Shown: positions 4,229 through 16,591 of the stretch, piece by piece
How positions within the stretch are numbered: position 1 is the first letter of the stretch
Layout of the letters: each line of letters begins with the position of its first letter
IMG/VR virus record: IMGVR_UViG_3300029095_000223
Direction: 5' to 3' (one strand)
Origin: a virus
Lineage: Duplodnaviria; Heunggongvirae; Uroviricota; Caudoviricetes
Length of the DNA stretch: 16,931 nt
Made by a program: the position numbers and the translations under genes
Notes under the pieces: model-generated
What the model saw: only the letters and a program-made list of their open reading frames with translations
Database searches by the model: none
Told to the model about the DNA's origin: nothing

Positions 4229-4435
4229 CTTCATTTTCACTTTTTTAAATCCAACGACAGACGGCTGGCATTTAAGTATTGTGAAATATTATCAAATGTA
4301 ATCATCATTGATTTACAAAAGATACATTTTGCCCCGAAAGGATTCATGTCAGAAACATCAAAAGATGATGTTCTATACTGGGAACCATGACAACACGGGC
4401 ATCTAAAGTGAATATGGTTTGTAATATTGTCTACC

Positions 4436-4648
4436 TCAAAGCGCCACTACATGAACAGCGGCAGGACCTTTAGGTCCGTTCTCAATACCAAATTCAACTT
4501 CCTGATTCTCAGTTAATGTTTTGAAATCGTTGCTCTGAATTGCTGAGAAATGGACAAACACATCTTTGCTGCCATCTTTCGGCGTGATGAAACCAAAACC
4601 TTTTTCAGGGTTAAACCATTTCACTAAACCAGTCATTTTGTTAGACAT
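4436..4648 (-). CDS. cspI: Cold-shock protein CspI (CspA family)
   Basis: 70-aa translation [70 protein letters not shown] has the CspA-family cold-shock domain motifs. AAGG Shine-Dalgarno upstream and a long AT-rich leader. Confidence 0.9.
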
Positions 4649-5010
4649 AATTATTACCTTTTGAAGAAATTAGCCCTTGGGCAGAATGGTCCGAAAAAAA
4701 ATATCAGAGAGAAAAACCAACAAGGAAATCTCAAGAGGTACAAATAATAAAATTATAACAATGACTGCTTCAGATAAATTTGTAACAAACCAGAACACCA
4801 TTAACGCATGATTAACCACCCATAGCAAGGATTACTTTTGTAAAGAAAAACACAGCAATGAAAGAATAGTTTTATTTATTAATAAAACGTGTCATTCTGA
4901 TTAAGACCTTTTATCTTACCCTTAAGATTTCAGGAATTTTGGCTCATGGAAGAGTCCTTTTTATTTAAATTTTACATTCCGCGATGTAAATGTTCCGATT
5001 TAATATTACC

Positions 5011-7038: not shown

Positions 7039-7319
7039 GAGATTGTGGTGCTTTTTGTGGGAGTCATCCACTTACGCACTTTGTTTTGCCATGCCAGCAG
7101 TTAGCTTCTGCTGTAAAACTATTCATGCAGCAAACCTGCACTTCACCACAATGGTTAGCATACTTTTCCTGATTAAGATTTTGCCAAATATGCTAGCCAT
7201 TGTTTCATGTATTGGACCTCCTTACTTTTTATTAAAGAGATCCAATATTCACTACTCTGTCCGTATCTCTACTCAGGCATCAGCCTTCTTCGTTATCGTA
7301 TACAGACGAGCGATGAATT

Positions 7320-7535
7320 TTAATCAGTAATGATGACATTTGCTGCTGCAGGACCTTTAGCACCACTCTCTATAGAGAAGGTAACCTTTTGACCTTCAAA
7401 TAAGGTTCGATAATTATCATTCTGAATCGCAGAAAAATGCACAAACACATCTTTACTACCATCAACAGGAGAAATAAAGCCGAAACCTTTATCAGCGTTA
7501 AACCATTTTACTAAACCAGTCATTTTATTTGACAT
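7320..7535 (-). CDS. cspB: Cold-shock protein CspB (CspA family)
   Basis: 71-aa translation [71 protein letters not shown]. Divergent from cspF as in Qin. Confidence 0.9.
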
Positions 7536-7835
7536 TCTACATTCCTTAACTTGAGCCTTTCGGCATAAATGGTTTGCATAACAGAAACGACTTCGTACTT
7601 AATTGGAGAGACTCAAAGAAGGAATAAGTGAATAACACCTGAAATGAGAACTGCTTTAGTAAACTACTTCGTATATCGTCTGTTCTTCAAACCGACGCAA
7701 TCATTAACGCATAGTTGAACATATGAAGCAATGTTTATTTTAGACATCCAGCCATCTTCAACCCCATCAAAAAACTATAGCTTTCTTCAGGAACGTGTGT
7801 ATAGTGCGCCAAGTTATCAGTATTAAGGAATTTTT

Positions 7836-11099: not shown

Positions 11100-11255
11100 T
11101 TACTCCTCAGGTTCGTAAGCTGTGAAGACAGCGACCTCCGTCTGGCCGGTTCGGATTCGTACCTCGCAGAGGTCTTTCCTCGTTACCAGTGCCGTCACTA
11201 TGACGGTTAAACAGATGACGATCAGGGCGATTAACATCGCCTTTTGCTGCTTCAT
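11100..11255 (-). CDS. hokD: Hok-family membrane toxin HokD (RelF), 51 aa
   Basis: Not in the ORF track as a minus-strand gene. Reverse-complement of 11100-11255 translates MKQQKAMLIALIVICLTVIVTALVTRKDLCEVRIRTGQTEVAVFTAYEPEE, then TAA. Sits 71 nt downstream of relE. Confidence 0.9.
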   Translation of the reverse strand: MKQQKAMLIALIVICLTVIVTALVTRKDLCEVRIRTGQTEVAVFTAYEPEE

Positions 11256-11326
11256 AGCCTGCTTCTCCTGTCAACGCAAAGCAGAAGTGTCACCTTCGGT
11301 GCGAAACAGAGATGTCATGCTTTGGT

Positions 11327-11614
11327 TCAGAGAATGCGTTTGACCGCCTCGCTATATACTTCCGAGCGTTCTCTTTTCCCAACAGAAATCACGAAAACGA
11401 CAACTTTCTCGTCTATAACCTGGTATACAAGGCGATAGCCTGAAGACCGGAGCTTAATCTTGTAACAATCAGGCATACCACGGAGCTTGTTTGCTTCAAT
11501 CCGGGGTGACTCAAGTACTTCAACCAGCTTCTTTTTCAACTGTTCACGTACCGTCGAGCCCAGCTTTCGCCATTCCTTTAGTGCCCGCTCGTCAAAATCC
11601 AGAAAATACGCCAT
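11327..11614 (-). CDS. relE: mRNA interferase toxin RelE
   Basis: 95-aa translation MAYFLDFDERALKEWRKLGSTVREQLKKKLVEVLESPRIEANKLRGMPDCYKIKLRSSGYRLVYQVIDEKVVVFVISVGKRERSEVYSEAVKRIL matches E. coli RelE as recalled. Start overlaps the relB stop. Confidence 0.95.
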   Translation of the reverse strand: MAYFLDFDERALKEWRKLGSTVREQLKKKLVEVLESPRIEANKLRGMPDCYKIKLRSSGYRLVYQVIDEKVVVFVISVGKRERSEVYSEAVKRIL

Positions 11615-11853
11615 CAGAGTTCATCCAGCGTCACACGTACTGGCTTAGGATTACGAAGCCGTTCTTTCACTATCTCCACAAGTTCAGCATCTTCATCACT
11701 CAGGAGTGTCTGTTTGAACGGCAAGCGTTCATTGTCAGCGATATACTCGAGCATGAGACGAAGCGCTTCAGAAGGAGTTACACCCATTTTTTCAAGCGCG
11801 GCGTAAGAACGCGCTTTAAGTTCATCGTCAATACGCAGGTTAATGCTACCCAT
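11614..11853 (-). CDS. relB: Antitoxin RelB
   Basis: 79-aa translation MGSINLRIDDELKARSYAALEKMGVTPSEALRLMLEYIADNERLPFKQTLLSDEDAELVEIVKERLRNPKPVRVTLDEL matches RelB as recalled. Operon order relB-relE-hokD. Confidence 0.95.
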   Translation of the reverse strand: MGSINLRIDDELKARSYAALEKMGVTPSEALRLMLEYIADNERLPFKQTLLSDEDAELVEIVKERLRNPKPVRVTLDEL

Positions 11854-11864
11854 GTCTTACACCT

Positions 11865-11890
11865 CTTGTAATTACAAATGTCATTACAAG
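11865..11890 (-). promoter_or_regulatory. relBE operator/promoter region (relO-like palindrome)
   Basis: cttgtaat-tacaaatgtc-attacaag: inverted repeats immediately upstream of the relB start (11853), consistent with the TTGTAAT-repeat operator bound by RelB2-RelE. Confidence 0.6.
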
Positions 11891-12183
11891 TATCGCACTA
11901 CAACATGCTTAGGGCAAGTCACGAAGGAAGTCAGAAAGTAGTCGTAAGAACGGTGATCACTGTCCGCTTTGTGCCAGGAGCAGCCATTGCTAAGTCCATC
12001 CTGTATTGTGCAGGTCAGCTCGTTTTTAAAGAGTCCGGCCATCATCTTACTGGTACAGACACCATATACTTTGTGACGGTCAGGCTACATATGCACAACT
12101 CAACTTATTCATCTATTTTTTGCTTTAGCATGTCAGTGTTGCTTTCTCGTCGGCGGGTGAGCGGTGACCTGAACTGTCGATAA
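11878..12183 (+). CDS. YdfV-like hypothetical protein (101 aa); coding status doubtful
   Basis: 101-aa ORF divergent from relB whose ATG lies inside the rel operator. Size and position match K-12 ydfV as recalled. No recognisable motifs, no strong Shine-Dalgarno. Confidence 0.4.
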   Translation: MSLQVSHYNMLRASHEGSQKVVVRTVITVRFVPGAAIAKSILYCAGQLVFKESGHHLTGTDTIYFVTVRLHMHNSTYSSIFCFSMSVLLSRRRVSGDLNCR

Positions 12184-12335
12184 AGGAACGTAACACGTTT
12201 TATGCAACACCCGCATGCGGCAGAAAATTATTGCCGAACGTTTACCCCTGTCAACAAGCTTTACTTTCTGAGGCGCGCCAGCCCGCGAGGAAAACAATCT
12301 GAACATCAAACAATTAATGACACAAGAAATACGAT

Positions 12336-12362
12336 TAAAGATTTTTTTGTGCATGCCGATAG
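12336..12362 (+). promoter_or_regulatory. Sigma-28 (FliA) class-3 flagellar promoter for flxA
   Basis: TAAAGATT-11 nt-GCCGATAG versus consensus TAAAGTTT-N11-GCCGATAA. About 25 nt upstream of the flxA Shine-Dalgarno (AAAGGAG) and start. Confidence 0.65.
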
Positions 12363-12385
12363 TGCTTTTTTAAAAGGAGAAATCT

Positions 12386-12718
12386 ATGTCTGTCACAATT
12401 CAGGGAAATACCTCAACCGTTATTTCAAACAACTCCGCCCCGGAAGGAACATCAGAAATAGCCAAAATCACAAGACAAATTCAGGTGCTGACTGAAAAGC
12501 TTGGGAAAATCTCATCGGAAGAGGGGATGACGACACAGCAGAAAAAAGAAATGGCTGCATTGGTACAGAAGCAAATTGAAAGCCTCTGGGCTCAACTGGA
12601 GCAGTTGTTAAGGCAGCAGGCAGAGAAAAAGAATGAAGACGCGACAGTTCAGCCTGATAAAAAAGAAGAGAAAAAAGACGATACAAATACCGCTGGCACC
12701 ATTGATATTTACGTCTAA
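12386..12718 (+). CDS. flxA: FlxA (FliA-regulated protein)
   Basis: 110-aa translation MSVTIQGNTSTVISNNSAPEGTSEIAKITRQIQVLTEKLGKISSEEGMTTQQKKEMAALVQKQIESLWAQLEQ... matches FlxA as recalled. Strong Shine-Dalgarno. Confidence 0.9.
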   Translation: MSVTIQGNTSTVISNNSAPEGTSEIAKITRQIQVLTEKLGKISSEEGMTTQQKKEMAALVQKQIESLWAQLEQLLRQQAEKKNEDATVQPDKKEEKKDDTNTAGTIDIYV

Positions 12719-12732
12719 GTGACAGCCGTATT

Positions 12733-12759
12733 GTGGCCCTCATCGGGCCACTTTTCGCC
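12733..12759 (+). terminator. Intrinsic terminator after flxA
   Basis: gtggccc-tcatc-gggccac hairpin followed by TTTTCGCC, 15 nt downstream of the flxA stop. Confidence 0.55.
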
Positions 12760-13154
12760 ATCAGCCTTTTCTTTAAAGACATATTATCTTTGTATCATTT
12801 CTGATAGTTAACATTACAAGATATAAGTAATGGACGCACTCCCAATTAGTCTATTTAAATCGCCACGAGTTTAACTGACAACCCATGATCAATTATGAAT
12901 TGCAACTATTTCTGTAGTCACTTTTGTGGGGACAGTCCACAAAACTGCCAACTTCCGCTTCTTGCTCTTAGCGGACATTAGCATAGGCTATTTACCATAA
13001 CGCCTCATTACGCGCACCGCCCAGACTGACTCAGCGCGTTTCTGGCATATCCCCGGTAAAACAAGTAACAAACCACCCGAAAATGAACACCAGAAACGCG
13101 ACTTAAGAATCTACCCTATGAATGGATATGCACTCAACCGAATCGATCTTGGTT

Positions 13155-14468
13155 TCAATCTTTTTTATCGGGATCAGGCTTCTTTTTAGGTAACTTCGGG
13201 GGCTTAACTTGCTGATGACTTTGCGTTCGGCGCGTAAGCCAGGGATGGTCAGCTTTAGGTTTAACATAGTATTTTGAGCGTAAATCAATACGGGCATTAT
13301 CCACTCGTTCATGGACACTCTTTTCATCATCCAGTGGTATAGGCTCCGGGCCATCAACATACTTTTCCCAGCCCAGCGCTTTCCCGTCATACAGAACGTT
13401 AATTTCACCGTCAAAGTTCTCGCATACAGTAACAACCGAATGCCTAAGTCGATATCCCCGGCCCTCACTGCGTACCTGAAACGCACTGCTTTTGTACTGG
13501 AAAGTGAGATTTTTAGACAGAACGCGCTTCGCCTGTAGGCTGAAGATATAACCCAGTTCCTCTTCAGAATGGTGCACATCAAGATGAGCATTATCAGTAG
13601 TACGAGGCGACGTAGCGAACCGGTTGTTATAGGCTTCAATAAAGGTCGGCAACCATGCATTTGCTGTTTCAATATCACTGATATTCTGAAGCCGCATTTC
13701 TTTGACCAGCCTGTCCTGTAGTGTCTGATTGGCGCGCTCTACCCGCCCTTTTGCCTGCGGGCTGTTGGCATGGATTGGCTCGATGCCCAGTGTCTTTATC
13801 GCACGAGTGAACTGGGTCAGCTCACCTTCCCGCTCTGGGTTATTTACCCTGAATATACTGTGTCTATCAGAGTAGAGAGCGAGCGGTACGCCATGATCAT
13901 TAAGGTAACCCCGGAGGGTTTCCATGTAAGCCCGGGTTGTTTCAGCAGGCACAAAACGCAACGCCATCAACGCACTGGTGGCATCATCAATGAAAACGAT
14001 CAGTGTACATCTGGGGCCTCGATTTTCAAACCAGTCATGAGGTGAGCCATCAATCTGGATCAGTTCACCGTAAGATGGTCGTCGCATGCGGCGTTGATAT
14101 ATACGGGCAATTTTACGACGGCGTTCACGCCATAACCCCTCTTCTATCATCCACTTTCTGAGAGTTTCAACGGATAAAGATAAACCGTGTATCTCGCGCA
14201 ATTTTTCGCACGCAAACGTAGGTCCAAAATCAGCGTAACGGCCTTTGAGGAGTGAAATTACTGTTGCTCTGAATTCAGTAGAAAAGGAATTATTAGGACG
14301 CTTTCCACGTCGGTGGGAAACCAGACCAGAAGGCCCTTCATTTCTATACCGTTGCACCAGACGTTTAACCTGCCGAATAGAAATGCCAATGCGTGCCGCA
14401 GCTTGTTCCTGAATAATCTGAAGTCGGTGGAGTTCCTTATGACTCATCGTAACAGTCTCTTTGATCAT
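13155..14468 (-). CDS. DDE transposase/integrase-core protein with N-terminal helix-turn-helix (IS481/ISNCY-type), 437 aa
   Basis: ORF with N-terminal HTH-like region (MSHKELHRLQIIQEQAAARIGISIRQVKRLVQRYRNEG) and an rve-like core (LIQIDGSPHDWF...LIVFIDDATS...LYSDRHSIF...ANSPQAKGRVERANQTLQ). Basic C-terminal tail. ATG at 14468 with a GGGGG Shine-Dalgarno upstream. Family assignment is from motif recognition only. Confidence 0.85.
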   Translation of the reverse strand: MIKETVTMSHKELHRLQIIQEQAAARIGISIRQVKRLVQRYRNEGPSGLVSHRRGKRPNNSFSTEFRATVISLLKGRYADFGPTFACEKLREIHGLSLSVETLRKWMIEEGLWRERRRKIARIYQRRMRRPSYGELIQIDGSPHDWFENRGPRCTLIVFIDDATSALMALRFVPAETTRAYMETLRGYLNDHGVPLALYSDRHSIFRVNNPEREGELTQFTRAIKTLGIEPIHANSPQAKGRVERANQTLQDRLVKEMRLQNISDIETANAWLPTFIEAYNNRFATSPRTTDNAHLDVHHSEEELGYIFSLQAKRVLSKNLTFQYKSSAFQVRSEGRGYRLRHSVVTVCENFDGEINVLYDGKALGWEKYVDGPEPIPLDDEKSVHERVDNARIDLRSKYYVKPKADHPWLTRRTQSHQQVKPPKLPKKKPDPDKKD

Positions 14469-14686
14469 GAAAAATCCCCCAGAGAATTGTCTGGGGACAT
14501 TTTAGAATGGTTCAAAGGGGACATTACAGCTTGGTGTTAACAATAGCCTGCTTCTCCGTGCCTTTCGGCACGTAAGAGGCTAACCTACATGTGTCTAGCA
14601 TGAAATTGGCCTCAGATTAATGTTAAGCGTCTTGCAGGACGCGTAATGTTAACTGGGGCTTTTCTCTATCTGCCTTTGGTGTTCGT

Positions 14687-14726
14687 GCCCGAGGCAGATA
14701 GCCTCAAGCACCCGCCGTGATTCTAC
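14687..14726. repeat. 40-bp imperfect direct repeat, copy A (pairs with 16706-16745)
   Basis: gcccgaggcagatagcctcaagcacccgccgtgattctac; 32/40 ungapped identity with copy B, including a 14-nt exact core cctcaagcacccgc. Confidence 0.55.
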
Positions 14727-14951: not shown

Positions 14952-15980
14952 TTACGCCTTAATAGGGTTAATCACATTTCCGCTATCCGTACCATAGTAT
15001 TTTTTTGTAGTCATGCCTTGTTTATAATAATCATTTAACAGTTTGAGAAAGTTTCTTCCTTGCCTCTCATCTTCTATGACTAATTTACCATGCTCATTGG
15101 TCTTAAACTCTTCGTTCTGAAACATTTTTAGCACATCATTCATAGCTTGAACATCATTCTTTTCCAGAACCGTATGGTTACCTTTCTCAGCGATATGAGT
15201 GAGAATTTTTCTCAGTGATGGCTTATGAAGAATAGCTTGTTCAATAACATCTAAACCTTCAATAAGATCAAGTTCTTTAATTGTATTTAATGTTTTTTGT
15301 GCAGCTTCTGTAAACTCAACCTCCAAGCCTACAATAGCCTCAAAACTTTTCTTATGAAATACATAAAATTGATCTTTTATATAAACACAATCGATTTTGT
15401 CATCAAAATTGACTGCGCTGCCATCAAATGATCTTAACTCTTTATCTGTTTTATCAAACAAAGCGAATACGCGCTGAGTCATATTTTGTGGTTCATTTGT
15501 TGTGACTTTCCCCCTGCTGATTTTTCGGAAAGAATAAGTGACGTCAGCCCCCTTTTGGACTTTAATACAATAGGCCCACAAATCATTCTGAACCTCAGCA
15601 AGAGAGGTAAGTACAACTGGTTTATCATTCTTTATATCGTTATTAATAACTTTTGAAAACGATATCGCGTTATTCATAGCATAGGCATAAATCTTATTAT
15701 CAATATCATCATCAATAACAGTATACTTTTTCATCACAATATCATCTTTCGAAGCATGAGAAATAATCTGGTTTGATAAAGTATACTTAAAAAATTTAGC
15801 AATATCTGGAGCGATTGGAGCTTTAATGATTTTAAAATCGAATTTATCAACAACTCTTGCGGTTCTACTCATACCCGCTTTAAGATGTCTAGTAATGAAA
15901 TACAACGATATTTTCGCCGCATCATCATCCTTAAGTTGCTCAGCATACTCTAATAATTCTTCAAGCTTTAACATTTTCAT
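14952..15980 (-). CDS. Uncharacterised soluble protein (342 aa), second gene of an AT-rich two-gene operon; candidate defence-system component (KwaB-like by architecture only)
   Basis: Long clean ORF in very AT-rich DNA, with Lys/Asn/Asp/Ile-biased composition. Its ATG overlaps the upstream gene's TGA (ATGA at 15977-15980). No catalytic motif recognisable by eye. Confidence 0.8.
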   Translation of the reverse strand: MKMLKLEELLEYAEQLKDDDAAKISLYFITRHLKAGMSRTARVVDKFDFKIIKAPIAPDIAKFFKYTLSNQIISHASKDDIVMKKYTVIDDDIDNKIYAYAMNNAISFSKVINNDIKNDKPVVLTSLAEVQNDLWAYCIKVQKGADVTYSFRKISRGKVTTNEPQNMTQRVFALFDKTDKELRSFDGSAVNFDDKIDCVYIKDQFYVFHKKSFEAIVGLEVEFTEAAQKTLNTIKELDLIEGLDVIEQAILHKPSLRKILTHIAEKGNHTVLEKNDVQAMNDVLKMFQNEEFKTNEHGKLVIEDERQGRNFLKLLNDYYKQGMTTKKYYGTDSGNVINPIKA

Positions 15981-16591
15981 TCCTTATGGGATTCAGCATA
16001 AAAAAGTTTTGGGCCCACGTCCTCAACATCAAGAAGATCATCTTCCTCCAAATACTTTGATTTAGTCAAAACCATACCAGTGCGTTTTTTGTCGCTTTCT
16101 AAATCCAAATATGTAACTTGATATAAAGTATAATTAATACTTATTGTAGGATTTATAAGTATCATGCTTGAATTAATATATATTAAAGCCGTTACCGTTA
16201 ACAATATTGCTATAGGTATAACATTAGTTAAAGTGGATAGATCCTGAAATACAAACGGAATTATATATGTAAAAAGATAGCTTATTGATTCATTGTTTTT
16301 ATTTTCAATATCTATAACTCTTACAGTTCTACCACTAGTGGCGCATCGACGTTTTATATTTTTTAAAAAAATTGTTAATCCTACAATACCAAATAATGAT
16401 AATACACCAATGACACTGACCGCGCCAAAGTATTTAAAGAAAATAGTTAATGATTCAACACTTATACCTTTCCAATTTAAATAGCTTCTATAAGTATACA
16501 ATTGCACAAAACACATGATAAAGAATAGGGGAAGGTATGACACTATAAATAGCGAAACTCTAGCACCTAAATGTAGTTTATTTACTCTCAT
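15977..16591 (-). CDS. Predicted integral membrane protein (204 aa, about 4 TM helices plus acidic C-terminal tail), first gene of the two-gene operon; candidate defence-system membrane component (KwaA-like by architecture only)
   Basis: Hydrophobic segments VSLFIVSYLPLFFIMCFVQLYTY, YFGAVSVIGVLSLFGIVGLTIFL, ISYLFTYIIPFVF and VIPIAILLTVTALIYINSSMILI, with a basic loop KNIKRRCATSGR. Translationally coupled to the downstream gene. Confidence 0.8.
   Translation of the reverse strand: MRVNKLHLGARVSLFIVSYLPLFFIMCFVQLYTYRSYLNWKGISVESLTIFFKYFGAVSVIGVLSLFGIVGLTIFLKNIKRRCATSGRTVRVIDIENKNNESISYLFTYIIPFVFQDLSTLTNVIPIAILLTVTALIYINSSMILINPTISINYTLYQVTYLDLESDKKRTGMVLTKSKYLEEDDLLDVEDVGPKLFYAESHKE

What the first reader, a model, noticed from the sequence alone, without database searches (positions are those of the whole stretch)
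12921..14530. DDE transposase insertion with unresolved ends; hairpins and same-orientation GG(G)GACA(T/G)T motifs on both sides
The 437-aa HTH plus rve-type transposase is clearly an insertion after flxA, but I could not find classical terminal inverted repeats. Instead both flanks carry a perfect hairpin (ttttgtgg-ggacagt-ccacaaaa at 12921-12943; ccccaga-gaattg-tctgggg at 14475-14494) and direct copies of a GGGGACA-like motif (about 12930, 12975, 14493, 14517). This is unusual for a simple IS and could indicate subterminal transposase-binding sites, a degraded element, or a larger composite element that includes the adjacent cassette.
Basis: seen in the sequence. Interest (0 to 1): 0.45.

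Follow-up and report, generated by a model that had tools for sequence, protein, structure and literature searches.

The report
relBE-carrying transposon inserted in hokD
The "transposase with no ends" is one arm of a 3.3-kb IS1202-family transposon, whose true ends lie at 11269 and 14542, that carries the relBE toxin-antitoxin genes and landed in the start of the hokD toxin gene.

Summary
The interval 12921-14530 is not a complete element. The 437-aa ORF is an IS1202-family (ISNCY/"ISEsa1-like") DDE transposase. Its left end (IRL) has its tip at 14542. The GGGGACATT copies at 14493 and 14517 are the family's two subterminal repeats in IRL.

The true right end (IRR) is at 11269, between relE and hokD. 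It shares 19/26 positions with IRL, has a TGT tip and matches the family consensus ...TTTGCGTTGACA. The transposon therefore spans 11269-14542 (3274 bp) and carries tnp, flxA, ydfV, relB and relE. A perfect 15-bp target duplication, ATAGCCTGCTTCTCC, flanks it.

It split a hok/sok locus. The leader lies at 14542-14713 and the hokD CDS at 11100-11255. Uninterrupted sites exist in other E. coli. The same unit also sits in the IncI1 pnd (hok-like) locus with a different perfect 15-bp duplication.

Relatives carry other cargo: about 14 kb including nickel- and chromate-resistance genes, or a TacA/GNAT pair. IRL abuts a hok leader or hok start in about 12 of 20 flanks examined.

This probably explains why ISEsa1 has "no detectable duplication", and how the relBEF operon arose. 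The window copy has a 9-aa deletion in its transposase.

The parts
11100..11255 (-). hokD coding sequence. This is the downstream half of the interrupted hok/sok target and lies outside the transposon.
   Evidence: Pfam HOK_GEF, 82.9 bits. PGAP names it hokD in identical records. In the empty site it is contiguous with the leader.
11254..11268 (.). Target-site duplication, left copy: ATAGCCTGCTTCTCC. On the hok strand this reads GGAGAAGCAGGCTAT, which is the hok Shine-Dalgarno sequence plus the AT of the ATG.
   Evidence: It is identical to 14543-14557. The uninterrupted locus in E. coli 746 has a single copy.
11269..11320 (+). IRR, the true right end. The sequence is TGTCAACGCAAAGCAGAAGTGTCACC...AGATGTCATGC, with the tip at 11269. 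The two repeat positions are about 17-26 and 42-51 nt from the tip.
   Evidence: It shares 19/26 positions with IRL. It matches the family IRR tip CTGCTTTGCGTTGACA seen in L037, L021, L046 and L077, and the tips of simple IS copies in Rhabdochlamydiaceae, Castellaniella and Elusimicrobia. In the spread of rows listed, genomes lacking the element stop matching at this base.
11327..11853 (-). relE (11327-11614) and relB (11614-11853). This type II toxin-antitoxin cargo lies next to IRR.
   Evidence: Pfam ParE_toxin and RelB; PGAP names. The module 11279-11980 is 98.9% identical in the roughly 16-kb Enterobacter plasmid version.
11959..11981 (.). Inner edge of the conserved relBE-IRR module. It holds a motif copy (ACTGTCCGC on the + strand) and a 21-nt repeat, TGTCCGCTTTGTGCCAGGAGC.
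   Evidence: It is inverted relative to 12957-12977 and matches it at 17/21 positions.
11981..12949 (.). Variable cargo segment.
   Evidence: This segment is not shared with the Enterobacter plasmid version or with L037. flxA matches Pfam FlxA.
12922..12944 (.). It lies in the variable cargo, just outside the conserved transposase module.
   Evidence: It is seen only in the Qin-type element. Its arms resemble degenerate IRR tips (TTTTGYGKKGACA), but that is inference only.
12950..12979 (.). Palindrome at the end of the conserved transposase module. In relatives it reads AATGTCCGCT-aagagcgaga-AGCGGACATT.
   Evidence: Similarity to 79 loci and 831 plasmid records ends between 12950 and 12964. 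No target duplication occurs at this boundary.
13155..14468 (-). Transposase gene, 437 aa. It has an N-terminal HTH and the catalytic residues D140, DD161-162, D201, E244 and Q251. It carries an in-frame 27-bp deletion at about 14406/14407 that removes ESINRHITQ. The gene annotated as 'ydfW' (13155-13304) is its C-terminal 49 codons.
   Evidence: Apart from the deletion it is identical to the 446-aa WP_004196353.1 of Klebsiella plasmids.
14476..14497 (-). On the transposase strand it pairs the CCCC of the inner repeat with the G-rich stretch just before the start codon, and it is followed by ATTTTTC.
   Evidence: It scores as terminator-like. In 7 of 8 diverged copies the predicted fold pairs the inner repeat with the stretch just before the start codon, although the paired bases differ between copies.
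14491..14542 (-). IRL, the true left end. The sequence is TGTTAACACCAAGCTGTAATGTCCCC-TTTGAACCATTCTAAAATGTCCCC, with the tip at 14542. The repeats on the + strand are at 14517-14525 and 14493-14501.
   Evidence: Similarity to diverged copies stops at 14542-14545. The same two-repeat layout is present in relatives from several phyla.
14543..14557 (.). Target-site duplication, right copy: ATAGCCTGCTTCTCC.
14542..14713 (-). hok mRNA leader and sok region. This is the upstream half of the interrupted hok/sok target and lies outside the transposon.
   Evidence: Rfam RF01794 (sok), 105.6 bits against a gathering score of 59, covering model positions 1-157.

Best explanation
Window 11269-14542 is a single 3274-bp unit transposon of the IS1202 family. 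In the transposase's orientation (minus strand) it reads IRL, tnp, palindrome, flxA and ydfV (variable cargo), relB-relE, IRR.

Shown: the family has TGT tips and two AATGTCC-type repeats about 19 and 43 nt from each tip. Inferred from published work on the family: the DDE transposase binds these repeats, cleaves at the tips, and joins the ends to a target cut with a 15-bp stagger.

Shown: a 15-bp duplication flanks the element. Here it entered a Qin-prophage hok/sok locus at the hok Shine-Dalgarno/start codon. The leader/sok half stayed beside IRL. The hokD reading frame, which keeps a duplicated SD and its ATG, ended up just downstream of relE. This produced the known relB-relE-hokD (relBEF) arrangement.

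That arm ends at a palindrome (12950-12979), where the cargo begins, and not at a transposon end.

In this clade of enterobacterial elements, insertion favours the translation-start region of hok-family loci. This is shown as a pattern; its mechanism is unknown.

The hairpin just inside IRL probably stops or silences transcripts reading in from outside, here from the hok promoter. This is inferred.

The window copy lacks 9 residues of the N-terminal DNA-binding region. It is probably no longer autonomous. This is also inferred.
For: 1. Family. NF033594 scores 456 bits. D140, DD161-162, D201, E244 and Q251 are present. This signature is described for IS1202 in bioRxiv 10.1101/2022.12.17.520857.

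2. IRL. Similarity to diverged copies ends at 14542-14545. The Hahella relative has 10 near-identical 1449-bp copies with 15-16-bp duplications. Its IRL has the same layout: TGTTAG..TGTAATGTCCCC, then AAAATGTCCCC 24 nt further in.

3. IRR and duplication. TGTCAACGCAAAGCAG... begins at 11269. ATAGCCTGCTTCTCC lies at 11254-11268 and 14543-14557. IRL and IRR share 19/26 positions.

4. Empty sites. The window flanks, joined through one copy of the duplication, match E. coli 746 over 520/520 nt at 99.4% in one piece. That strain shows rem-hokD-leader-KwaB with no relBE, flxA or tnp.

5. Independent transposition. In IncI1 plasmid NZ_CP039299.1 the same 3301-bp unit sits in the pnd locus between perfect 15-bp repeats, TGGAGGGGCTATGAT. 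The reconstructed empty site matches other IncI1 plasmids 600/600 at 100%.

6. Other cargo, same ends. L037 is 4275 bp with a perfect 15-bp duplication, CATTAAGCTGCAAAT, and carries TacA/GNAT, GrpB and an acetyltransferase. In Enterobacter plasmid OW849205.1, IRL lies in a hok-like leader. It is followed by tnp, about 14 kb that includes ncrABCY and chromate-resistance genes, and then relBE and an IRR. 10 of the 15 duplication bases are retained.

7. Distribution. 1165 of 5426 E. coli genomes have the relE-IRR-hokD junction. In the spread of rows listed, genomes lacking it stop matching exactly at the IRR tip.

8. hok preference. 11 distinct IRL flanks are hok leaders: the window, L003, L086, L006, L007, L010, L013, L015, L024, L038 and L039. 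Their scores are 20-63, against a maximum of 14 for shuffled flanks. L020 (inverted hok start) and L021 (hok-start remnant) are further likely cases. IRL lies 0-8 nt from the ATG. The leaders differ from each other far more than the IRLs do.
Against: - No transposition assay has been done. Transposase binding to the repeats is inferred from conservation and from the literature (PMC10132070).
- Complete elements with both ends and a duplication were found in only four contexts, one of which has a damaged tip. Most other loci had only 3 kb of flank, so their distal ends were not seen.
- Eight IRL flanks show no similarity to hok leaders (one of them, L021, carries only a 10-nt hok-start remnant), and L037 is a proven non-hok insertion. 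Targeting is therefore a preference and not absolute.
- Some hok-flanked copies could descend from shared ancestral insertions rather than from independent events.
- The conserved boundary at 12950, with its vestigial IRR-like sequence, leaves open that a 1.6-kb form was once, or still is, mobile.
- RNAalifold gave no consensus structure for the IRL hairpin.
Confidence: 0.88

Rival explanations
1. A simple ~1.6-kb insertion sequence (ISEsa1 as catalogued: 1609 bp, IR 15/22, no duplication) sits after flxA, with degenerate or atypical ends at about 12950 and 14542. On this view relBE, ydfV and flxA are ordinary neighbouring prophage genes.
For: Similarity to dozens of copies in different contexts ends at 12950-12964. 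PGAP labels the gene as an ISEsa1-family transposase. ISEsa1 is catalogued at 1609 bp with no detected duplication (PMC10132070). A degenerate IRR-like stretch follows the palindrome in the window and in L024.
Against: No copy has a duplication at the 12950 boundary (PMC10132070). The end at 12950 shares little with IRL. A canonical IRR with a perfect 15-bp duplication lies at 11269. The empty site lacks relBE, ydfV and flxA as well as tnp. The whole 3.3-kb unit moved to an IncI1 plasmid.
Confidence: 0.05
2. The mobile unit is normally the 1.6-kb insertion sequence. The long units arise occasionally when the transposase skips a weak proximal right end and uses a distal, orphan IRR, mobilising whatever lies between. 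This would resemble ISEcp1-style read-through.
For: The proximal palindrome contains the repeat motif. It is followed by a vestigial IRR-like sequence (GAAAAGCGGACATTTAAGTTTTG in L024). Cargo differs between elements.
Against: The distal IRR, and in three cases the adjacent relBE, is conserved among elements with different cargo and up to about 30% nucleotide divergence: the window, L087 and L021 (relBE) and L037, L046 and L077. That is not expected from random capture of surrogate ends. No short form with a duplication was found.
Confidence: 0.07
3. relBE entered hokD as a free toxin-antitoxin module by recombination, and the transposase gene is an unrelated later arrival nearby. This is the horizontal-transfer view attributed to Ramisetty & Santhosh 2016.
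For: The literature states that relBE integrated into hokD from plasmids and names no vehicle (PMC6379469).
Against: The 15-bp duplication brackets tnp and relBE together. IRL and IRR form a matched pair. The same whole unit is present in the pnd locus.
Confidence: 0.02

Closest known systems
IS1202 family, ISTde1-type subgroup (15-17-bp duplications); catalogued member ISEsa1
   Same: It has a DDE transposase with an N-terminal HTH and the D..DD..D..E..Q signature. Its tips are TGT/ACA. Both ends have a conserved block about 20 nt in, plus a second internal repeat. Its duplication is 15 bp. PGAP assigns the protein to the ISEsa1 family.
   Different: The unit is 3.3-16 kb and carries four or more passenger genes. 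Published members are 1.3-2.0 kb, with at most one passenger gene. ISEsa1 is catalogued as 1609 bp with no duplication, which appears to describe only the transposase arm. Preferential insertion at hok start regions has not been reported for this subgroup.
ISAba32/ISAjo2 subgroup of IS1202, which targets XerCD dif/pdif sites
   Same: It belongs to the same family. Its insertion is oriented and site-preferring, with IRL next to a short structured target. It has Tn7-like TGT/ACA tips and repeated internal binding sites.
   Different: That subgroup makes 5-6-bp duplications and targets Xer sites. This element makes 15-bp duplications and favours hok/sok leaders. The spacing to the target also differs.
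Tn3-family transposons that carry toxin-antitoxin pairs within the transposition module
   Same: A type II toxin-antitoxin pair is a recurrent built-in part of a transposon and is not random cargo. Here it is relBE in three elements and TacA/GNAT in a fourth, always beside IRR.
   Different: The transposase family is unrelated. There is no resolvase. The toxin-antitoxin pair sits at the far end from the transposase.
IS150 and IS186 insertions beside chromosomal hok loci in E. coli K-12
   Same: Mobile elements interrupt or flank chromosomal hok/sok loci and inactivate their regulation.
   Different: Those are simple insertion sequences of other families located near the loci. Here a cargo transposon sits at the SD/start codon and rewires hokD into a relBE operon.

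Membership tests
IS1202 family (formerly the ISNCY/IS1202 group) | DDE transposase of 400-500 aa with an N-terminal HTH, a conserved DD between the first two D residues, and a Q seven residues after the E | tested here: met
   NF033594 scores 456 bits against a cutoff of 250. HTH_32, HTH_29 and rve_3 are present. D140, DD161-162, D201, E244 and Q251 are present. The signature is taken from 10.1101/2022.12.17.520857.
IS1202 family | Termini 5'-TGT ... ACA-3', with a conserved block around position 20 of both inverted repeats and a second internal repeat | tested here: met
   IRL is TGTTAAC..TAATGTCCCC..AAAATGTCCCC, with its tip at 14542. IRR is TGTCAAC..AAGTGTCACC..AGATGTCATG, with its tip at 11269. 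They share 19/26 positions. The features are described in PMC10132070 and in the Siguier et al. preprint.
IS1202 family, ISTde1-type subgroup | Target duplication of 15-17 bp | tested here: met
   There are perfect 15-bp duplications in the window, L003 and L037, and 10/15 bases retained in L086/L087. The Hahella relative makes 15-16-bp duplications.
IS1202 family, as a simple insertion sequence | Length of 1.3-2.0 kb with a single transposase ORF and at most one passenger gene | tested here: not met
   The element is 3274 bp and holds tnp, flxA, ydfV, relB and relE. Relatives are 4.3 kb and about 16 kb. It is therefore a unit transposon built on an IS1202-type transposition module.
ISEsa1 (ISfinder entry) | At least 95% DNA or 98% protein identity to the reference ISEsa1 sequence, with the same ends (threshold recalled from ISfinder naming rules; not checked here) | not testable with these tools
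Only the PGAP label 'IS1202-like element ISEsa1 family' and the published size could be compared. The published values are 1609 bp and a 439-aa transposase. Here the conserved arm is 1591 bp (1618 bp with the 27 bp restored) and the transposase is 437/446 aa.
Composite (compound) transposon | Two copies of an insertion sequence flanking the cargo | tested here: not met
   There is one transposase gene only. The relBE arm has an IRR but no transposase gene.
[quoted passage not shown] | A hok mRNA leader with the sok region, followed directly by a Hok/Gef reading frame | tested here: met
   RF01794 scores 105.6 bits at 14542-14713. HOK_GEF matches at 11100-11255. The two halves are contiguous in E. 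coli 746.

The most novel reading that the evidence does not exclude
An enterobacterial clade of IS1202-type transposons is currently annotated only as the short 'ISEsa1' or 'ISNCY' transposase and is present on more than 800 sequenced plasmids. These are really cargo transposons with a built-in toxin-antitoxin pair at the right end. They actively home to the ribosome-binding/start region of hok/sok loci, replacing one addiction module's control with their own. On this reading the textbook relBEF operon of E. coli K-12 is the scar of such an event. The same vehicle also moves a roughly 14-kb segment that includes nickel- and chromate-resistance genes between plasmids.
Probability: 0.55. Interest if true: 0.72.

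Novelty: new variant of a known kind. Interest (0 to 1): 0.6.

Why it matters
- Annotation. It corrects how a widespread element is delimited. The 'ISEsa1/ISNCY transposase', the 'ydfW' gene and the 'missing C-terminus' pseudogene calls are all pieces of one transposon. It probably also explains why no target duplication was ever found for ISEsa1.
- Origin of relBE. It gives a concrete vehicle and insertion event for relBE, one of the most studied toxin-antitoxin systems, and for the odd relB-relE-hokD operon.
- Target choice. It extends site-preferring insertion in the IS1202 family beyond Xer sites to hok/sok loci. These loci are common on conjugative plasmids, so the element has a ready route between plasmids and prophages.
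- Resistance cargo. It identifies the ends needed to recognise larger versions, such as the one carrying nickel- and chromate-resistance genes.

Tried and rejected
- Inverted repeats. A local alignment between 12860-13160 and the reverse complement of 14440-14700 gave only chance 9-mers. This is why I turned to comparative boundaries.
- The 12950-12964 boundary. I first treated it as the right end. I rejected this because no duplication is present there in any locus, the sequence does not match IRL, and the Hahella relative showed what a real IRR looks like.
- Distal IRR search. I looked for a distal IRR or duplication in 18 other enterobacterial loci. Only L037 gave one within the 3-kb flanks. 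L085 and L086 showed none within 8 kb. Extending the Enterobacter plasmid record by about 19 kb then revealed relBE and a tip-deleted IRR.
- IRL hairpin. RNAalifold on eight diverged copies gave no consensus structure, probably because of alignment mis-register. Single-sequence folds were used instead, which is weaker evidence.
- The 12922 hairpin as a terminator. It was not called as one and has no T-run.
- PGAP's 'missing C-terminus'. I rejected this call. The ORF is collinear to its stop codon with an accepted 446-aa transposase.
- Literature. Searches for ISEsa1+hok and for ISNCY+relBE+transposon found nothing.
Full report
**Checking the observation**

The 437-aa ORF at 13155-14468 (minus strand) is real. 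It has N-terminal HTH domains and an rve_3 core. It matches NCBIfam NF033594, 'ISNCY family transposase', at 456 bits against a cutoff of 250.

Both hairpins exist, 1-2 nt from the stated coordinates, at 12922-12944 and 14477-14496. Perfect hairpins of this size are only modestly over-represented in the window: 8 against 3.0 +/- 2.2 for stems of at least 8 bp.

The motif is clearly non-random. GSGGACAKT occurs 5 times against 0.41 expected. A fifth lies on the other strand at 11959-11967.

**What the gene is called elsewhere**

Identical sequence is present in hundreds of E. coli chromosomes. NCBI's pipeline annotates it as a truncated 'ISNCY' or 'IS1202-like element ISEsa1 family' transposase plus a separate 'ydfW' gene.

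'ydfW' is simply the last 49 codons of the same ORF. The window protein is collinear to its stop codon with the accepted 446-aa transposase of Klebsiella plasmids. The only difference is that nine residues (ESINRHITQ) are missing, through a 27-bp in-frame deletion between TCCTGA repeats at about 14406/14407.

The catalytic signature described for IS1202 transposases is intact: D140, DD161-162, D201, E244 and Q251 (the signature is from bioRxiv 10.1101/2022.12.17.520857).

**Finding the left end**

I fetched 79 related loci from one genome per species and compared them with the window. On the transposase-proximal side, similarity stops at 14542-14545 even in copies only about 70% identical.

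A Hahella relative has ten near-identical 1449-bp copies, each flanked by 15-16-bp duplications. It shows the canonical layout. The tip is TGT. An AATGTCCCC block lies about 19 nt in, and a second copy lies 24 nt further in. The right end mirrors this.

Read on the minus strand from 14542, the window has exactly this layout: TGTTAACACCAAGCTGTAATGTCCCC-TTTGAACCATTCTAAAATGTCCCC. They match the extra internal binding site described for this family in PMC10132070. The same layout recurs in relatives from several phyla.

**Finding the right end**

On the other side, similarity to most enterobacterial copies stops at 12950-12964. This boundary never carries a duplication. That agrees with the published statement that ISEsa1 (1609 bp, IR 15/22) has no detectable duplication (PMC10132070).

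The decisive clue came from the flank outside IRL. Rfam finds a full-length hok/sok leader at 14542-14713 on the minus strand, scoring 105.6 bits against a gathering score of 59. It ends at the hok start codon. The matching hok reading frame is hokD at 11100-11255, which is 3.3 kb away on the same strand.

Immediately upstream of hokD lies TGTCAACGCAAAGCAGAAGTGTCACC...AGATGTCATGC. This sequence shares 19/26 positions with IRL and has the same two-repeat spacing. It ends in the family-wide right tip ...CTGCTTTGCGTTGACA, which is also found in simple 1.44-kb copies in Rhabdochlamydiaceae, Castellaniella and Elusimicrobia.

The 15-mer ATAGCCTGCTTCTCC abuts both tips, at 11254-11268 and 14543-14557.

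**Proof of the insertion**

I joined the two window flanks through a single copy of the 15-mer. The joined sequence matches E. coli strain 746 over all 520 nt in one piece at 99.4%. The gene order there is rem, hokD, leader, KwaB-like gene, with no relBE, ydfV, flxA or tnp.

Of 5426 complete E. coli genomes, 1165 contain the relE-IRR-hokD junction. In the spread of rows listed, genomes lacking it stop matching exactly at the IRR tip.

The same unit is also found in IncI1 plasmid NZ_CP039299.1. There it is 3301 bp because it lacks the 27-bp deletion. It lies inside the pnd (hok-like) locus next to trbA, between perfect 15-bp repeats of a different sequence, TGGAGGGGCTATGAT. The reconstructed empty site matches other IncI1 plasmids 600/600. 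The 3.3-kb unit has therefore transposed as a whole at least twice.

**Relatives with other cargo**

- In Scandinavium (L037), a 70%-identical transposase arm and the same IRR tip enclose 4275 bp. The cargo is a GrpB protein, a hexapeptide acetyltransferase and a TacA/GNAT toxin-antitoxin pair. The element lies between perfect repeats of CATTAAGCTGCAAAT in a site that is not a hok locus.
- In Enterobacter plasmid OW849205.1, IRL sits in a hok-like leader. It is followed by the transposase, about 14 kb that includes nickel (ncrABCY) and chromate-resistance genes, then relB-relE and an IRR. The relBE module is 98.9% identical to the window's. A 15-bp deletion has removed the tip of that IRR, but 10 of the 15 expected duplication bases remain.
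- In Leclercia (L021), relBE and an IRR again lie together.

The conserved parts are thus the transposase arm (12950-14542) and, in three of the four elements whose right end was seen, a relBE-IRR arm (11269-11980). The middle varies.

**Target preference**

In 11 distinct flanks, IRL lies 0-8 nt from the start codon of a hok-family leader. These are the window, L003, L086, L006, L007, L010, L013, L015, L024, L038 and L039. L020 (inverted hok start) and L021 (hok-start remnant) are further likely cases.

These leaders differ from each other by roughly a quarter or more of their bases and show compensatory hairpin changes. The adjoining IRLs, by contrast, are identical or nearly so, and the offset to the ATG varies. 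This pattern fits repeated insertion better than a single inherited event.

Eight other flanks show no similarity to hok leaders (one of them, L021, has only the 10-nt remnant noted above), and L037 is a proven non-hok insertion. I therefore call this a preference and not a strict specificity. Its basis is unknown. The duplication always starts within 0-2 nt of the 3' hairpin of the leader.

**The two hairpins**

The 14477-14496 hairpin lies inside IRL, between the inner repeat and the start codon. On the transposase strand it pairs the CCCC of the repeat with the G-rich stretch that probably serves as the ribosome-binding site. It is followed by ATTTTTC and scores as terminator-like. In seven of eight diverged copies the predicted fold again pairs the inner repeat with the stretch just before the start codon, although the paired bases differ between copies. 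RNAalifold gave no consensus.

I infer that it limits transposase expression from transcripts entering from outside. Here those would come from the hok promoter; a promoter-like site lies at 14748-14720.

The 12922-12944 hairpin lies in the variable cargo and is specific to the Qin-type element. Its arms resemble degenerate right-end tips, but I could not establish a function for it.

**Unresolved**

The variable middle is bracketed by 21-nt inverted repeats that share 17/21 positions. One is TGTCCGCTTTGTGCCAGGAGC at 11961-11981. The other is the reverse complement of 12957-12977. These could be inner transposase sites, the ends of a nested element, or a place where cargo is exchanged.

**Comparison with what is known**

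The element meets every tested feature of the IS1202 family and of its subgroup with 15-17-bp duplications. The exception is that it is not a simple insertion sequence.

Published surveys report at most one passenger gene per element. They also report targeting only for the 5-bp subgroup, at Xer sites.

The integration of relBE into hokD has been noted before, without a vehicle being named (PMC6379469). I found no paper that links ISEsa1 or ISNCY elements with hok or relBE. The searchable library is incomplete, however, and I could not consult ISfinder or TnCentral.

**State of this copy**

In K-12, a deletion removed IRL, the leader and most of tnp, leaving only 'ydfW'. The window copy keeps both ends. 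Its transposase lacks nine residues at the start of the HTH region, so it is probably a non-autonomous fossil. The plasmid-borne 446-aa versions may still be active.

Noticed in passing
window 13155-13304 and 13425-14468: This is an annotation artefact. PGAP splits one intact ORF into 'protein YdfW' and a pseudogene labelled 'ISNCY transposase, missing C-terminus'. The K-12 gene ydfW is the 3' remnant of this transposase gene.
   Followed up: yes
window 11961-11981 and 12957-12977: The variable cargo (ydfV/flxA) is bracketed by 21-nt imperfect inverted repeats (17/21). Each begins with TGTCCGC, the core of the end-repeat motif. Their role is unknown: a nested element, inner binding sites or a cargo-exchange point.
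   Followed up: partly
L004, L007, L008, L010, L011, L013, L020 (about 4536 in the loci); L009, L022, L021: Other insertion sequences sit inside the loop of the palindrome that ends the transposase arm. ISEsa2 (IS110 family) lies at AAGAGCGAGA|TATAGTC. An element starting TGTGAGTTCAAC lies at AAGAGC| in copies that are only about 71% identical to each other. The palindrome may itself be a target for other elements, and it may have set the catalogued 1609-bp limit of ISEsa1.
   Followed up: no
L021 2857-2960: In Leclercia sp. EMC7, a relBE-IRR tip is followed by 10 bp (GAAGGCTATG, a hok start remnant) and then the IRL of a transposase arm. This could be two elements inserted back to back at one hok site, or a tandem or circle-type junction.
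   Followed up: partly
L046 about 2997; L020 about 2912-2926: In L046, an IRR tip is inserted inside another copy's transposase gene. In L020, IRL abuts the reverse complement of the R1-type hok start (ATGGCCTTCTTCTCC). This suggests either insertion in the opposite orientation at the same 15-bp site or an inversion.
   Followed up: no
L087 7150-7190 (OW849205.1, about 94150-94190): The roughly 16-kb version carrying nickel- and chromate-resistance genes has lost 15 bp (TGCGTTGACAGAGTT), which covered the IRR tip and 5 bp of the duplication. The loss was probably by slippage between TT repeats, and it would immobilise the element.
   Followed up: yes
L025-L031, L035, L036, L050 (Hahella sp. 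SMD15-11): A 1449-bp simple IS1202-family element is present in at least ten near-identical copies with 15-16-bp duplications, and two copies are adjacent in L026. It looks recently active and is a good reference for the canonical ends.
   Followed up: partly
window 4409-4794 and 7304-7696 (minus strand): There are two full-length Rfam cspA thermoregulator matches (112.8 and 158.8 bits). They are presumably the leaders of the Qin cold-shock genes.
   Followed up: no
window 14952-16591: Directly beyond the hok leader are a gene for a Kiwa KwaB-like domain protein and a 204-aa hypothetical protein. This is a possible anti-phage module in the prophage. Both are present in the empty-site strain, so they are not part of the transposon.
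   Followed up: partly
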